Shown: positions 1-56,332 of the stretch, in pieces
Numbering within the stretch: position 1 is the first letter of the stretch
How the letters are laid out: the number at the start of each line of letters is the position of its first letter
Assembly: GCA_951406725.2 (NCBI GenBank)
Contig: CATOCA020000020.1
Span: forward strand, 9,001 to 73,000
Length of the DNA: 64,000 bases
Reading direction: 5' to 3'
Origin: Octopus vulgaris
Taxonomy: Eukaryota
Position numbers: made by a program

Positions 1-3000
1 CGCAGTACCACCACCGCCCGCTCCCGGCCGACACGGAGATAGAAATATCTCGTATCCGCCGAAAAGGGCTGCGAGTTCCTGCGGGTCGGAGAGCCTGGTT
101 TCACTGATGGCTGCTATATCCACATCATGAAACCTCAGGTCGTTTAACAGGTGACCCTGTTTCCAAGGTGACCCGAGGCCTCTCACATTCAAGCAACCGA
201 TTCTAAGATTTGCCATGTCTCAAGAATTAGGGAAAAAAAAAGGAGAAAAAAGGCTCTACTTACTGTTGTTGGTGGTGGGGGTGGCTCCCTTGTGCTTTTG
301 CACGGGTGCTTCAATAATATTTTTGTAAAGTTTCTGAGAGAAACTTTTCCCTAACGATCCCACATCGTTAGGGAATATTTGTTTTATTTCATTGTACACT
401 GTTTTGTTTATTTTTATTGTGAGAATGTGTGCTGGTGGTGTGTTGTGTGTAGGTATTATGAAATCTGTAATGTTTGTGCTTGTTTTGTTTTTCAAATACT
501 CAACCAGTTCCTGGTTTCTTGTATTCACTGCTGTAATCGTGTCTGTAATTGTGTCTGTGTTTGTTTGTGTCTGTGGTAGTGGCAGTAGTGGTGTCGAAAG
601 TGTTGTTGTTGTTGTTTGTTGTTGTGAGTGTGTGTTGTTGTTGATGTTGTTGTTGATGTTGGGAAGTACTATTTGTTCGTGCTTCCCCTGTAAAACTTTT
701 TGTTTTTTCCTCCTTTTCTTTTTTGGAGGTACTATATTCCATTCTCCTTTGTTGGAATCCGAGCTCGCACAATCCGAGATCTCTTCATCCGGCAAAGGAA
801 TGGTTGAGGGGTCTGCTTCAGTAGCAGGACGAAAAGTTTTAGGTTCCGCCGGTATCGGTGGTGCCGCTGCTCCTGTTACTGTTGATGTCGCTGCTGTCGA
901 CCTTCGAGGTACTGGTGTCGGTGTTGGTTTGGTGGTGGTTGTCGGTGTTGGTTTGGTGGTGGTTGTTGTTGTTGGAGGTGGTGTTGTTCGTCTTGGTGCT
1001 GGTGTTGGTGATGGTGTTGGTGGTGTGGCAGCCTTTGGTTTTTCTTGCTGTTTTTGTTGTTTCTGTTGTTGTTGCTTGTGTTGTTGTTGTTGTTGTTGTT
1101 GTTGCTGCTGCCTCTTGCTATACTCCTCCATTCTCTTTTTTTGAATGGGGCAGTCCCTTTTTAGGTGGCTTTCGCTACTGCAGAGGAAACATTTTGGCTT
1201 TCGCCCCTCTACAATAACATTTAGCCTGGTCCCATCCAGCAAGATGACAAAGTCAGGTATGGCATTGATGTTTTCCTGCTGGATCTGTACCAGCAGTTGA
1301 ATACCCATGCCTGACCAGTTCTTTTCTCGTACCCTCCGAACATTCAGAATAGTGGCAGTGTCCTCTATGCCATAGAGGACAGCCGCCACTAGCCATGAGA
1401 TTTTCTGTTCGGGGGTATTGTGCTTATGGTTATTTTTTGTACCTTACGCCCGAGGTACGTCGGGACGAGGAACAAATGTTCATTTTGCAAGGGCGAAATG
1501 GCGTTTGCCCTTGCAAGCTCCTCTGTTGGGAAGCGAACCTCCACGGTTCCAAATCGCTTCCCTCTTGTCACATAGCTCTTCTGGCCCCAAATGGGCTTCA
1601 GAGCCATCTCCAACTGTTGTGGTGTGGCGTTAAACAATCTTTTAGTTTTCTTTTCGAAGACTTTATAAAAGATTGTTCTTTTGCTTGTTTCTTGTGTGAG
1701 TTGTTGAGGTGTGTTGAGGAAAACACTGTTCCCCTCCTTTCTCAACAAATCTTGTGCCATTTTTATGTCCTCCATTGTAATTTCTACATCTTCCGAAATT
1801 TGCTTCGCAGCAGAAGCAAAATCGTTAGAAGCTTTTACAGTTTTTTGTTGGTTCTTGTCTGTGTTTGTGTCTGTTATAATTTTCTTTACCTCCCCCTTCG
1901 GTACAGCATCACTTGTTGAAGGCAGAGGGGGAAATCAAGAGTGACGTCGAACGCGACGTCCTGGCATGCATTCTCCTTTTGAACCGAGCGCGTGCTCTCC
2001 GGTTCGGAAGGAGGAGCTTTGTTGCCTTTTACGGCCTGAAATGGGTTGTACGTAACCCGTGACGTTATTTTTTTTGTTCTTGTAGGGGGGTGTTGCAAGA
2101 AGGAGGGAAGAGCCAGCAGCTCGTTTTAGTGCCATTTTGTAATGTGTGTGTGCAAAAAATGTCAATTTCAAAAGGATAGACAGTAATTTCACCCCGAATG
2201 GGGCAAAATTTCGCCCAACCGACGAGCTCCGCAAGAAGCCGGTCGGTTTGGCTACAAAAATATTAAAAAATATTCAAGCTTATTAAAAAATTTCCAATAA
2301 AATTGGCACAAAACTCACAGAGCTGATTCACGTACGTCCATCGGCGTCGGAAGGAATAATAATAATAATCAATTCTTTTTTATTGGCCACAAGGGCTGAC
2401 ACGCATGATTACATAAAGGGACAAGACAGGACGAAAGGTTACAAAGGGTTTTGTCCGTTTGTTAAAAAATCGTGTAAAAATCTTTAAACAATGATTATAA
2501 AAAACAATGAAAAACTCCCAAAAGGGGGAGACGTCTCGAAATGTTCCCGGTGGAAAAAACCCTACAAAAGCCAACGGGAGCCTGGTCAAAAAAAGGGGGT
2601 GTAGAGAGTCCCCTTTCTTCTCCTTTTACATTACCTTTTTCTTTGAAATCACAGGCGAAACCTGAGAACTGGTCCATTTATACAGGCCAGTCTCGCACAA
2701 TTCACCCACCTTTCATAAAACTTGCTATCGGACAGCACTTTCCTCTCTAACCTCATCTTCCTTTTCAAGTGAAACTTGAAAAAGTTGATGAGGCCTTGAC
2801 CAAAGAGGAAAGTGTCTGACTTTAGCCCTTTCAAACGAGTCCACCACACGACTTCTTTCGCCACAGCCACAAGGCACAAGAAAACGGCCTCGCCCTCCTT
2901 GTTAAAGGAGGTCGGCGGGGCAATCTTCACTATGGATTCGGCCGATAGTCGGATCCGTCCTACACGTGACAGTAGCTGTTCGACATAAACCCATATTTCA

Positions 3001-53948: not shown

Positions 53949-56332
53949 GCTATGCTGCTGCCTCTTGCTGGCTTCTCCATCACCAACACCTTTTAGGTGG
54001 CACCAAGACGAGCAACATTTTGGCCTCAACAACAACAACCACCACCAAACCAGCACCTGACAACCACCACCAAGCCAACACCGACACCAGGTACCTCGAA
54101 GGTCGACAGCAGCGATCATCAGCAGTTGAATACCCAGGAGCAGCGGCACCAGTTCTTTTCTCGATACCGGTGGAACCATTCAGAATACTTTTCGTCCTGC
54201 TACTGCCGCTCAGACCCGCAGAACCATTCCTTTGCCAGTCGGGGAAGAGATCTCGGATTGTGCGAGCTATGATTCCAACAAGGAAAATGTGATACCTTAG
54301 TGCCTCAAGAAAAAGGTACGTCGAAGAAACAAAAAGAGGTTTACAGTTCATTTTGCACGAAGGGCGAAATAGTGCGTTCGCCAACATGCAACAAGCAACA
54401 ACAACAAGCACACACTCACACAACAACAAATCAACAACAACAACACTTGTCGACACCACTACTGCCACTGGCCACACACACAAATGGGCACACACAGACA
54501 CAATTACATCAATAAACACAAACTGAACCAAAAACCCCAGTGGAGTACTTAAAAAACAAAATCTAGTACAAGACTTTATAGATTGTTCTTTTGCTTGTTT
54601 CTTGTGAGTTGTTGGTGTGTTGACCAACACAAAACACACAAGTTCACACATTCTCACAATAAAAATAAATGCAAAATCATATGATGAAATCAAACAAATT
54701 TATGTCCCTAACGATGTGGGATCGCTAGGGAAAAGTTTCTCGAAGAAACTTTGCTATAAAAACAATGAAGCACCCGTGCAAAAGCACAGAGGCCACCCCA
54801 CCACCAACAACAGTAAGTAGAGCCTTTTACAGTTTCTCCTTTGTTGGTCCCCTACTTTGAGACATGTGTCTGTTATAATCTTAGAATCGGTTGCTTGAAT
54901 GTGAGAGGCCTCAGGTCACCTTCAGAAACAGGGTCACCTGTTAAACGACCTGAGGGGGTTTCAAGATGTGGATGTAGCAGCCATCAGTGAAACCCAGGCT
55001 CTCCTGACCCGCAGGAACTGCAGCCCTTTTGAACCGAGCAGATACGAGATATTTCTATCCACGTGTCGGCGGAGGAGCGGGCGGTGGTGGTACTGCGGTG
55101 TTGGAAGAGGCCTGGACCTGAAAATAAGGACAGTCTTCTTGGATCCGTGAAGGTAAGTTGGTGGTCCTCGACGTCGACAGTAGTGACGGCGGTGCTTTGC
55201 AAGAAGGCCTACGCTCCGACAGGAGCCAGGGCAGCTCGGATTATTTCAAACGTCTGGAAGTTTTCCTGGGAACGTCACGCACTCTAGTACTGGTGGGGAT
55301 TGGAACGCTGTCAATTTCAAAAGGACGAACGATAATTTCACCCCAGATAGGGCAGGGAGCGTCTGATAGGAGGGTGCAAGAGCCTCGCCAACCCTCGGCC
55401 GATTTCAGCTGTCCGGCTACGGTTTTCGACTAGACAACCCGAATGTGCCAATGTGGACTTGGACAAGCCGCATCGGGTCGTCTAGATCGTACTTAGATGC
55501 GTGTTTTCACGTAGGCCAGCGGATAAGGACAGCGTAGGGTGTCCACAATTCCACCTAGTCGAATAATACGGACCACAAATTAGTGATCTGTACGGTCGAC
55601 TTGATGAGCTAAGACAGGGACGGCTACTGGATAGCTGAATGTCCTGATGCAGTATCAAGCTTACAGAGACTGGCTCTAGTTTACTAGCTTAAGCAGTCTT
55701 AGCTGATTGGCCAGTATCATCAACAACAACTGGTGGTTTGCCCTCAAGATGGTCAATTACAGTAGAGTATTCGATTAGGTAATACCGTAGGACTCTAGCT
55801 CAGTTGAACGTGGACCAGAGAGAGCGGGATTGGTGGCTGACGAAACTAGACGGGCATCTTGACACTGGCATTATCGCGCAACCGACGTGTTGGCGGCAAG
55901 GTTGGCCTCGACCAACACTGACGCCAAGCCTGAAAGGAATTCTTTGCGTTGTCAGAGCTATAGGCATTCGCCTTCGCTAAGCGAGGAGGGACTAGAGTGT
56001 TTCGATGGGCCCCGCGTGGCGGAGGCGAAGCAGGCAATTCAGAGCAACCATCTCGGTCTTTTGCGGGATAGGCCCATTGAACGGGCGCGGGTTACCCAGA
56101 AAAAAATTCCAACTGGGCCCGGTACTAAGATCATGCGCTGTTTGTCTAGATTAAGATCAACCATGTTTGGGACAGGCGGTGGAACGGATACCAGCAGTTG
56201 CAGACATGTCGGTGGTGTACCCTTGGACGGACTGCCGACGGGTAGTCACTCTCGGACAGCGAGGCAGACCTTCGTATATTTTACCCCAGTGGGAAGCATG
56301 CACATGAAGAGTTGCACGAGGGTAGATCGCCG

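What the first reader, a model, noticed from the sequence alone, without database searches (positions are those of the whole stretch)
1..53970. Macrosatellite-like array made only of full-length, near-identical, coding-competent Tx1-type LINEs
Seen: at least 10 consecutive same-orientation units, no intervening host DNA, no 5' truncation at any of 9 junctions, and five intact 1144-aa ORF2s differing only at residue 34 (I/V). Known: ordinary L1/Tx1 insertions are dispersed and mostly 5'-truncated. Clustered non-LTR arrays are associated with specialised chromosomal niches (Drosophila HeT-A/TART/TAHRE telomeres, Chlorella Zepp self-insertion, R1/R2 in rDNA). Inference: this is either a self-targeting retrotransposon that builds its own array or a DNA-level amplified master locus. 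It could be a telomeric, centromeric or piRNA-source domain. I know of no described precise Tx1-clade array of this kind.
Basis: partly seen in the sequence, partly recalled or inferred. Interest (0 to 1): 0.85.

Follow-up and report, generated by a model that had tools for sequence, protein, structure and literature searches.

The report
Tandem LINE retrotransposon array, homogenised by recombination
The whole window is a head-to-tail array of one (ATT)n-tailed L1-type retrotransposon, probably in an octopus-like genome; its copies are kept alike by DNA recombination, which makes it a new example of a known route from mobile element to large satellite.

Summary
The array is real in the sequence. 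On the minus strand there are 8 complete units of 5864-5878 nt, one unit cut by the window edge, and one innermost unit that is 5'-truncated. They are joined by 9 junctions that differ only in repeat number: AATAAA signal, (ATT)5-6, then the same first base. Five ORF2s of 1144 aa differ only at I/V34.

Three parts of the finding do not hold. ORF2 is broken in 4 of 9 minus-strand copies. No unit has a whole ORF1. The array ends at about 53976 against an inverted, old, decayed copy, which is followed by another young unit on the plus strand. No host DNA lies anywhere in the 64 kb.

Recombination is shown. Both edge copies are mosaics whose old-to-young switch lies inside the unit, not at the junction. 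In addition, 93 of 171 site pairs fail the four-gamete test. Seeding by tail-directed insertion is only inferred.

Tx1 clade membership, chromosomal position and read support could not be tested. This is a new member of a known kind (R1 tandem arrays, transposon-derived satellites). Interest is moderate.

The parts
1..2354 (-). 5' part of a unit (5'UTR, ORF1, start of ORF2), cut by the window edge. The array continues beyond position 1.
   Evidence: Unit start motif at 2354. It differs from unit 8219-14088 by 1 substitution.
2355..8218 (-). Full unit (5864 nt) and the most diverged interior unit. ORF2 is broken by a 5-nt deletion.
   Evidence: 33 substitutions and 21 indels against the majority state; the longest ORF2 piece is 875 aa, at 3451-6078.
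8219..14088 (-). Full unit (5870 nt). ORF2 is intact at 8513-11947. Its tail (ATT)5 lies at 8219-8233 and its AATAAA signal at 8243-8248.
14089..19956 (-). Full unit (5868 nt). ORF2 is broken by a 1-nt deletion. The ORF1 C-terminal frame is open over u913-2097.
19957..25822 (-). Full unit (5866 nt). ORF2 is intact at 20250-23684. It holds the longest ORF1 piece from the ATG, 432 aa at 24305-25603.
25823..31693 (-). Full unit (5871 nt). ORF2 is intact at 26118-29552.
31694..37562 (-). Full unit (5869 nt). ORF2 is intact at 31993-35427 and is the only intact copy with V34.
37563..43428 (-). Full unit (5866 nt). ORF2 is broken by a 2-nt deletion. Its tail is (ATT)6.
43429..49306 (-). Full unit (5878 nt). 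ORF2 is intact at 43729-47163.
49307..53976 (-). Innermost minus-strand copy, 5'-truncated in the ORF1 poly-Q region (u about 1226-1238). It is a mosaic. From u2654 to u5576 it is 100% identical to unit 8219-14088. Its inner part (window about 52550-53976) is 92-98% identical and carries older variants. ORF2 has 2 indels.
   Evidence: (23 of 39 private substitutions shared with the old plus copy).
53845..53976 (.). Single-copy spacer of the head-to-head inversion. It is continuous with the minus copy. The innermost inverted arms are 53831-53844 and 53977-53990.
   Evidence: pair I22, 14 nt, 100% complementary, 132 nt between the arms.
53977..58769 (+). Old, decayed copy of the same family in inverted orientation, starting at u about 1343. 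It is colinear with ORF1 and ORF2 at protein level but has many frameshifts. Up to u about 5340 it is 62-94% identical to the young units. Its last 529 nt (about 58241-58769) have no private difference. Its tail is (ATT)6.
58770..64000 (+). Young unit on the plus strand, full-length at its 5' end and cut by the window edge. ORF2 has 5 indels. It follows the old copy's tail directly.
   Evidence: (99.3%).

Best explanation
The window is a real tandem array (a macrosatellite) of one young family of L1-superfamily LINEs, in what is probably an octopod cephalopod genome.

Each unit consists of:
- a 220-nt 5'UTR;
- an ORF1 with one CCHC knuckle and a long low-complexity tract;
- a 1144-aa ORF2 with APE endonuclease, RT and zf-RVT domains;
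- a 290-nt 3'UTR with an AATAAA signal;
- an (ATT)5-6 tail in place of poly(A).

Most likely history:
1. (Inferred) Full-length copies were reverse-transcribed onto, or next to, the (ATT)n tail of a resident copy. The RNA's own (AUU)n end can pair with a nicked (AAT)n strand, so the tail of an existing copy is a ready target. This made the first tail-to-head dimer, and it brought more than one source lineage into the locus.
2. (Shown) The array was then expanded, and is kept uniform, by homologous exchange at the DNA level, that is unequal crossing-over and gene conversion. The ORF2 core is homogenised most strongly and the edge units only in part.
3. The head-to-head centre is a later or earlier rearrangement whose origin stays open. 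It could be a fold-back type inversion, or an insertion of the minus-array founder into the old plus copy.

No host function is shown. The array is best read as a selfish safe-haven or satellite-in-the-making.
For: Array and junctions:
- 10 of 10 tail junctions (9 on the minus strand, 1 on the plus strand) have the same structure and the same first base.
- The 8 full units differ by 0.5-6.5 substitutions per kb.

Recombination (shown):
- The old plus copy is 62-94% identical to the young units up to u about 5340. It then has 529 nt with no private difference, and this tract differs at 1 position from the 3' end of unit 43429-49306 against 7-16 positions for the other 8 copies. The tract is colinear, with no duplicated 3' end, so it is a homologous replacement and not an insertion.
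- The truncated minus copy has 0 substitutions against unit 8219-14088 over u2500-5500. It has 39 over u1500-2500 and 7 in the 3'UTR. 23 of its 39 private substitutions are shared with the old copy.
- Among the 8 full units there are 19 informative sites. 93 of 171 site pairs fail the four-gamete test, and Hudson-Kaplan Rm is 8.

More than one source lineage (inferred):
- One search listed 16 distinct ORF2 substitutions. I dropped 4 that lie beside indels in the plus copy. Of the remaining 12, 8 are synonymous and 4 non-synonymous, where 24% of sites are synonymous (binomial P=0.002).
- Segregating sites per kb are 64 in the 5'UTR, 35 in the 3'UTR, 4.8 in ORF1 and 2.6 in ORF2.
- Three age layers of one family lie at one locus.

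Against an artefact:
- Each unit has private substitutions and indels.
- The two arms of the inversion are only 88% alike at the centre. A missed-adapter or amplification chimera would give identical arms.

Element type and host:
- Pfam finds Exo_endo_phos at residues 10-231, RVT_1 at 514-759 and zf-RVT at 980-1031.
- The best solved relative is human L1 ORF2p (E 9e-51).
- The closest named protein is from Argonauta hians (68% identity).

Precedents:
- R1 tandem arrays formed by reinsertion at the resident copy's target-site duplication (PMC2718515, passages).
- Double insertion followed by unequal exchange (PMC5932611, passages).
- Tx1 families that target microsatellites and satellites, and sequential tandem insertion of their SINE partners (PMC4494074, passages and section 15).
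Against: - No direct trace of independent insertion events. 0 of 10 tail junctions leads into a 5'-truncated unit, although such tail-to-internal junctions are the usual mark of LINE double insertions (PMC5932611). All junctions are identical apart from the repeat number, as expected if one junction was simply amplified.
- No end of either array, no flank, no target-site duplication and no solitary copy is in the window. Tail or (ATT)n targeting is therefore untested.
- The selection signal rests on 12 substitutions. Most of them lie in the first 500 nt of ORF2, within or next to the older-type tract. Ectopic gene conversion from dispersed family members could give the same signal without any targeted insertion.
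- The low variation of the ORF2 core is at least partly due to conversion rather than selection. The truncated copy has 0 differences there, synonymous sites included.
- 38 of 78 indels among the full units are 1-nt homopolymer length changes, so some 'decay' may be sequencing error.
- Read-level support for the assembly could not be examined.
Confidence: 0.6

Rival explanations
1. Iterative self-targeted retrotransposition alone. The element's endonuclease and RT home to the (ATT)n tail or junction of resident copies, so every unit is a separate insertion, as in HeT-A/TART, Zepp or R1 arrays. Recombination is only a minor later overlay.
For: - Nearly identical units are interleaved with older ones. 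The units at 1-2354, 8219-14088, 14089-19956 and 25823-31693 differ by 1-3 substitutions, while 2355-8218 and 19957-25822 between them differ by 38 and 13 from unit 8219-14088. Random insertion into tails predicts this pattern.
- A young full-length unit directly follows the tail of an old decayed copy.
- ORF2 is intact in 5 of 9 minus-strand copies, and the ORF2 differences are biased towards synonymous changes.
- Tx1-clade elements are often target-specific (PMC4494074).
Against: - 0 of 10 junctions is tail-to-internal.
- The old-to-young switches lie inside the edge units, not at the junctions.
- Rm is at least 8 among the 8 units.
- The truncated copy has 0 differences over 3 kb of ORF2 while both of its flanks are diverged. 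Insertion cannot produce that.
Confidence: 0.15
2. Pure DNA-level amplification of a single chance dimer or segment by unequal sister-chromatid exchange or replication slippage, with no target preference of the element. The variation between units comes from in-situ mutation and ectopic conversion.
For: - Junctions are identical at all 10 sites.
- Edge mosaics and four-gamete failures are present.
- This is the general model of satellite growth (PMC5932611).
Against: - The model needs a first precise tail-to-head dimer of full-length copies, and an untargeted element rarely makes one.
- ORF2 differences are biased towards synonymous changes (P=0.002), and the UTRs are 13-25 times more variable than ORF2. 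In-situ neutral mutation does not predict either.
- Three age layers of one family lie at one locus.
Confidence: 0.15
3. Assembly or library artefact: an assembler loop through dispersed copies, or concatemers from rolling-circle or MDA amplification.
For: No reads could be examined. Long near-identical repeats are error-prone in assembly. Half of the indels are homopolymer length changes.
Against: - Every unit has its own set of substitutions and indels, with 5-33 substitutions against the majority state. A loop or a concatemer of one circle would give identical units.
- The edge copies are colinear mosaics with older sequence.
- The arms of the inversion are only 88% alike at the centre, unlike chimeric fold-back reads.
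Confidence: 0.07
4. Reintegration of an extrachromosomal circular or rolling-circle concatemer of the element, followed by divergence.
For: This route is listed as a possible origin of tandem transposons in PMC5932611. It would give identical junctions.
Against: - A circle junction would join the tail to the 5' end without need of an (ATT)n-compatible mechanism, yet here an old resident copy shares the same junction.
- The variation between units has the make-up of family variation, not of post-integration decay.
Confidence: 0.03

Closest known systems
Tandem arrays of the site-specific LINE R1 in Drosophila rDNA (Stage & Eickbush 2009, PMC2718515, passages seen; Rae 1982 seen only as a citation there)
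   Same: Head-to-tail arrays of full-length, coding LINE copies with a constant short sequence at each junction. They form by reinsertion next to a resident copy and are then subject to unequal crossing-over.
   Different: R1 units are separated by a 14-nt (or 33-nt) duplication of the 28S target and lie inside rDNA. Here only (ATT)5-6 lies between units and no host gene is present. In R1 the new copy enters upstream of the resident one. Here the truncated or old founders sit upstream and the full-length units downstream. The clade also differs (R1 against the L1 superfamily).
Transposon-derived satellites by double insertion plus unequal exchange (McGurk & Barbash 2018, PMC5932611, passages seen)
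   Same: A two-step route: a transposon dimer made by transposition, then expansion by unequal exchange. All units share one junction. This is the best-fitting model here.
   Different: Their LINE dimers are mostly tail-to-internal, with 5'-truncated second copies. Here 10 of 10 junctions lead into a full-length 5' end. The array is at least 54 kb of 5.9-kb units, of which more than half keep an intact ORF2.
Target-specific Tx1-clade LINEs: Kibi (TC)n, Koshi (TTC)n, crocodilian (TTCC)n/(TTTC)n families, and telomere-specific Tx1-1_ACar (Kojima 2015, PMC4494074; PMC10088271)
   Same: An L1-like two-ORF element with an APE endonuclease and a short-repeat rather than poly(A) 3' end. It accumulates at repeats. 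Tandem copies by sequential insertion are reported for the SINE partners of these elements.
   Different: Tx1 membership was not tested here. An (ATT)n target is not named in the passages I read. I did not see the supplementary target tables of that paper, which may bear on this. No flank is available here to show a target.
Telomeric or self-nesting LINE arrays: HeT-A/TART/TAHRE, GilM/GilT and Zepp (PMC10088271 and PMC5932611, passages; Zepp details and Cryptococcus Cnl1 are recalled only)
   Same: Same-orientation arrays made only of LINE copies, with no host DNA between them.
   Different: Those arrays show many 5'-truncated junctions and lie at chromosome ends with one orientation. Here there is no truncation at junctions, no telomere repeat, and two arrays point away from a head-to-head centre.

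Membership tests
L1 superfamily of non-LTR retrotransposons (L1/Tx1) | ORF2 with an N-terminal APE-type endonuclease, a central RT and a C-terminal Cys-rich zinc-binding domain | tested here: met
   Pfam finds Exo_endo_phos at 10-231 (E 6e-17), RVT_1 at 514-759 (E 9e-30) and zf-RVT at 980-1031 (E 1e-8). The best PDB match is human L1 ORF2p, E 9e-51 over residues 4-861. R2 proteins reach only E 1e-22 or weaker.
L1 superfamily of non-LTR retrotransposons (L1/Tx1) | A separate upstream ORF1 that encodes a nucleic-acid-binding protein | tested here: inconclusive
   An ORF1 region lies at u220-2100 and holds one CX2CX4HX4C knuckle (weak zf-CCHC hit, E 0.056). There is no other Pfam match. No unit has the frame open end to end.
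Tx1 clade | The RT domain groups with Tx1 reference elements in a phylogeny | not testable with these tools
   No named Tx1 reference sequence could be obtained. Two homologue searches and the Atlas returned only generic names. L1-Tx1 elements are annotated as recently active in Octopus vulgaris (PMC13282606, passage), which is compatible but is not a test.
Tx1 clade | Insertion into a specific target sequence (multicopy RNA gene, transposon, microsatellite or satellite) | tested here: inconclusive
   Every tail abuts another copy (10 of 10 junctions). No array end, flank or solitary copy is in the window. No RNA gene lies in the unit.
Macrosatellite / transposon-derived satellite evolving in concert | Head-to-tail units over 1 kb with one shared junction and high identity | tested here: met
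   There are 8 full units of 5864-5878 nt differing by 0.5-6.5 substitutions per kb, and 9 junctions of identical structure.
Macrosatellite / transposon-derived satellite evolving in concert | Exchange between units: mosaic units, and less homogenised array edges | tested here: met
   93 of 171 site pairs fail the four-gamete test and Rm is 8. Both edge copies switch from old to young sequence inside the unit.
HeT-A/TART-type telomeric LINE array | Terminal position, a single orientation towards the chromosome end, and variable 5' truncations at junctions | tested here: not met
   Two arrays of opposite orientation meet head-to-head at 53845-53976. 0 of 10 junctions is truncated. There is no TTAGGG repeat. 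Chromosomal position itself could not be tested.
Self-nesting LINE clusters (Zepp-type; features recalled, not read) | New copies inserted into the tails or bodies of older copies, giving nested, mostly truncated copies of graded age | tested here: inconclusive
   A young unit follows the tail of an old copy, but the last 529 nt of that old copy are themselves replaced by young sequence. There are no truncated nested copies.

The most novel reading that the evidence does not exclude
The element is a self-homing LINE. Its endonuclease and RT recognise the (ATT)n tail (or the tail-head junction) of its own copies, so it builds and replenishes its own arrays as a genomic safe haven. The resulting inverted, multi-unit block, of which this window shows only 64 kb, would serve the octopod host as a specialised chromatin domain such as a centromere core or a piRNA master locus. 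The ORF2 core would be kept intact by conversion among units.
Probability: 0.2. Interest if true: 0.65.

Novelty: new member of a known kind. Interest (0 to 1): 0.4.

Why it matters
This would be a clean, sequence-resolved stage in the transition from an active LINE to a macrosatellite. More than half of the units still carry an intact reverse-transcriptase gene, and the marks of concerted evolution are directly readable: mosaic edges, conversion of the ORF2 core and shuffled haplotypes.

For cephalopod genomes, which are repeat-rich and poorly understood, such blocks are candidates for heterochromatin, centromere or small-RNA source regions, and they are obvious traps for assembly. If the family proves to home to its own (ATT)n tail, it would add a microsatellite-tail self-target to the known target range of L1/Tx1-type elements.

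Tried and rejected
- Tandem Repeats Finder gave 0 rows. Its longest period is 500 nt, so this says nothing about a 5.9-kb unit.
- I looked for a host RNA gene or other target remnant between units. Rfam at gathering scores gave 0 hits in 64 kb. ARAGORN gave 0. A permissive Rfam scan of one unit gave a single hit, Entero_OriR at 23.8 bits against a gathering score of 80 (E 0.16), which I take for chance.
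- Telomere repeats: 0 matches to (TTAGGG)3 with up to 1 mismatch.
- Clade test: I tried to obtain a named Tx1 reference through relatives. One search returned 62 hits and (query: frog protein P0051) listed 120 of 305. None was named Tx1. The Atlas gave only generic names. Pfam on three relatives showed that a fish relative carries ZCCHC3-type RNA-binding domains in a fused ORF1, but the ORF1 here does not match them. A literature search for a ZCCHC3-Tx1 link gave nothing useful. The clade stays untested.
- Hypermutation of the old copy by RNA or DNA editing is rejected. 109 of 219 substitutions are transitions and no single class dominates.
- A recent fold-back duplication as the origin of the inversion is rejected. 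The two arms are 88% alike next to the centre, no more than the old copy is to the young units. An ancient fold-back, or insertion of the minus founder into the old copy, both remain possible.
- A short 5'-truncated young insertion as the explanation of the young 3' end of the old copy is rejected. The switch is colinear, without a duplicated 3' end.
- A foreign insertion inside the old copy is rejected. tblastn shows it is colinear with ORF1 and ORF2 throughout.

Full report
**What is in the sequence**

Base composition and skew repeat with a period near 6 kb from position 1 to about 54 kb, and then change sign. A 6-kb query (window 8000-14000) finds 10 plus-strand matches at a spacing of about 5.87 kb from 1 to 53953, at 98.5-100% identity. 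It also finds four inverted matches between 54627 and 64000, at 80.6-99.3% identity. Tandem Repeats Finder reports nothing, but its period limit is 500 nt.

The coding strand of the main array is the minus strand. A 17-nt motif marks the first bases of a unit. It occurs 9 times on the minus strand and once on the plus strand. This defines 8 complete units of 5864-5878 nt.

Every one of the 9 minus-strand junctions, and the one plus-strand junction, reads: AATAAA signal, about 10 nt, (ATT)5 or (ATT)6, then the same first base of the next unit. Nothing lies between units. No Rfam family reaches its gathering score, there is no tRNA, and a permissive scan of one unit gives one chance-level hit.

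**Anatomy of a unit**

- A 220-nt 5'UTR.
- An ORF1 region at u220-2100, with one CCHC knuckle and long Gln- and Thr/Pro-rich low-complexity tracts. It has no Pfam match beyond a weak zinc-knuckle hit.
- A 40-nt spacer.
- An ORF2 of 1144 aa, with Exo_endo_phos, RVT_1 and zf-RVT domains.
- A 290-nt 3'UTR, and the (ATT)n tail in place of poly(A).

The best solved relative of ORF2 is human L1 ORF2p (E 9e-51); R2 proteins score far lower. The closest named protein is a hypothetical protein of the octopod Argonauta hians at 68% identity. The best hit overall, at 74%, is unnamed. The host is therefore probably an octopod cephalopod, where L1-Tx1 elements are annotated as recently active (PMC13282606, passage; PMC8967140, passages).

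I could not test Tx1 clade membership. No named Tx1 reference came out.

The count of units and junctions is right: 10 units and 9 junctions. The claim of five ORF2s of 1144 aa that differ only at I/V34 is also right.

Three qualifiers are needed:
- The tenth, innermost unit (49307-53976) is 5'-truncated in ORF1.
- ORF2 is frameshifted in 3 of 8 full units and in the truncated copy. No unit has ORF1 open from start to end, although the majority state is open over u419-2098. 38 of the 78 indels among full units are 1-nt homopolymer length changes, so true decay and long-read error cannot be told apart.
- The structure goes on beyond 53970. Positions 53977-58769 hold an inverted older copy of the same family. 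It is colinear with ORF1 and ORF2 at protein level but full of frameshifts. Its (ATT)6 tail is followed directly by another young full-length unit that runs to the window end.

The whole 64 kb is this one family, and both arrays run off the window.

**The centre**

The two arrays meet head-to-head. The innermost inverted arms are 53831-53844 and 53977-53990, with a 132-nt single-copy spacer that is continuous with the minus copy. Both copies are thus cut in the same poly-Q stretch of ORF1, about 105-117 nt apart.

This layout looks like a fold-back inversion. However, next to the centre the arms are only 88% alike, no more than the old copy is to the young units. A recent fold-back, and a chimeric-read artefact, are therefore excluded. 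An ancient fold-back, or insertion of the minus founder into the old copy, remain open.

The substitutions of the old copy show no editing-like bias (109 of 219 are transitions).

**Evidence for DNA-level exchange (shown)**

1. The old plus copy is 62-94% identical to the young units up to about u5340. It then has 529 nt without a single private difference. This tract differs at 1 position from the 3' end of unit 43429-49306 and at 7-16 positions from the other 8 copies. The switch is colinear, with no duplicated 3' end, so it is a homologous replacement. It lies inside the unit, not at the (ATT)n junction.
2. The truncated minus copy has 0 substitutions against unit 8219-14088 over u2500-5500. 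It has 39 over u1500-2500 and 7 in the 3'UTR. 23 of its 39 private substitutions are shared with the old copy. A copy whose flanks are 2-8% diverged should show some twenty synonymous differences in ORF2, by my estimate from about 830 synonymous sites. It shows none, so the core was converted.
3. Among the 8 full units there are 19 informative sites. 93 of 171 site pairs fail the four-gamete test, and the minimum number of recombination events is 8.

**Evidence that more than one retrotransposed lineage entered the locus (inferred)**

One search listed 16 distinct ORF2 substitutions. I dropped 4 that sit next to indels in the plus copy. Of the remaining 12, 8 are synonymous and 4 are not, where 24% of sites are synonymous (P=0.002).

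Segregating sites per kb are 64 (5'UTR), 35 (3'UTR), 4.8 (ORF1) and 2.6 (ORF2). Two 5'UTR haplotypes differ at about ten positions within 45 nt. Three age layers of one family lie at one place.

Units that are nearly identical (1-3 substitutions apart) are interleaved with older ones. Tail insertion or whole-unit conversion would give this pattern; block duplication would not.

**Evidence against insertion as the main builder**

0 of 10 junctions leads into a 5'-truncated unit, and all junctions are identical apart from the repeat number. The selection signal rests on few sites, which lie near the older-type tract. Ectopic conversion could mimic it.

**Most likely mechanism**

A tail-to-head dimer arose when a full-length copy was reverse-transcribed onto the (ATT)n tail of a resident copy. 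The RNA's (AUU)n end can pair with a nicked (AAT)n strand. The priming logic is general target-primed reverse transcription knowledge, and its application here is inference. Further lineages may have entered in the same way.

The array was then expanded and is kept uniform by unequal crossing-over and gene conversion. These act most strongly on the ORF2 core and least at the edges.

This is the two-step route described for transposon-derived satellites (PMC5932611, passages). It parallels the R1 tandem arrays of Drosophila, which form by reinsertion at the target-site duplication of a resident copy (PMC2718515, passages). Tx1-clade families that target microsatellites or satellites, and sequential tandem insertion of their SINE partners, are described in PMC4494074 (passages and section 15). 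A telomere-specific Tx1 is cited in PMC10088271.

Details of Zepp, Cnl1, the I-factor (TAA)n tail and Dong are recalled only and rest on no call.

**Artefact question**

I could not see reads. The sequence itself argues for a real array:
- Each unit has private substitutions and indels.
- The edges are colinear mosaics with older sequence.
- The inversion arms differ strongly from each other.

I give an artefact 0.07.

**Novelty and limits**

Five literature searches found no description of a tandem array of L1/Tx1-type full-length LINEs in a cephalopod. The library holds open-access papers and preprints only.

I did not see the supplementary target tables of PMC4494074. They may show whether an (ATT)n-targeting Tx1 family is already listed.

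The kind of structure is known, so I rate this a new member of a known kind, with interest 0.4.

The following stay unchecked:
- chromosomal niche (telomere, centromere, piRNA cluster);
- copy number beyond the window;
- target specificity;
- Tx1 clade membership.

No other locus of this family could therefore be examined.

Noticed in passing
window 53831-53990: The head-to-head inversion junction has a 132-nt single-copy spacer, and both copies are cut within about 105-117 nt of each other in the ORF1 poly-Q/(CAA)n stretch. A short stretch (about CTCCAT) can be read as belonging to both copies, which suggests microhomology at the join.
   Followed up: partly
window about 58241-58769 (+) compared with the 3' end of unit 43429-49306 (-): The converted 529-nt 3' end of the old plus copy differs at only 1 position from the 3' end of the innermost full minus unit, against 7-16 positions for the other 8 copies. 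This hints at exchange between the two inverted arms.
   Followed up: partly
u36-66 of each unit, e.g. window 14023-14053 (-): There are two sharply different 5'UTR haplotypes, with about ten differences in 45 nt. One is carried by units 37563-43428 and 2355-8218. Units 31694-37562 and 25823-31693 carry recombinant forms, while their ORF2s differ by less than 0.2%.
   Followed up: partly
ORF1 region of every unit, e.g. window 11990-13869 (-): ORF1 is about 626 codons if read through. It has one CCHC knuckle, a poly-Q run, Thr/Pro-rich repeats and a C-terminal part that looks coding but matches no Pfam family. Its frame is broken at different homopolymer runs in every unit.
   Followed up: partly
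all units; indels listed: 38 of 78 indels among the 8 full units are 1-nt changes in homopolymer runs. This is the error profile of long-read assemblies as well as a mutation hot spot, so the broken-gene calls need a polishing check.
   Followed up: no
window 8219-8250 (-) and the 9 other junctions: An AATAAA signal lies 10 nt upstream of the (ATT)n tail, yet no copy carries poly(A). This implies that reverse transcription starts within the (AUU)n stretch of the RNA rather than on a poly(A) tail.
   Followed up: no
protein P0043 (fish relative): A distant fish relative is a fused ORF1-ORF2 protein. Its ORF1 part matches the two RNA-binding domains of the vertebrate host protein ZCCHC3 plus a zinc knuckle. 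The ORF1 in this window does not match these domains.
   Followed up: no
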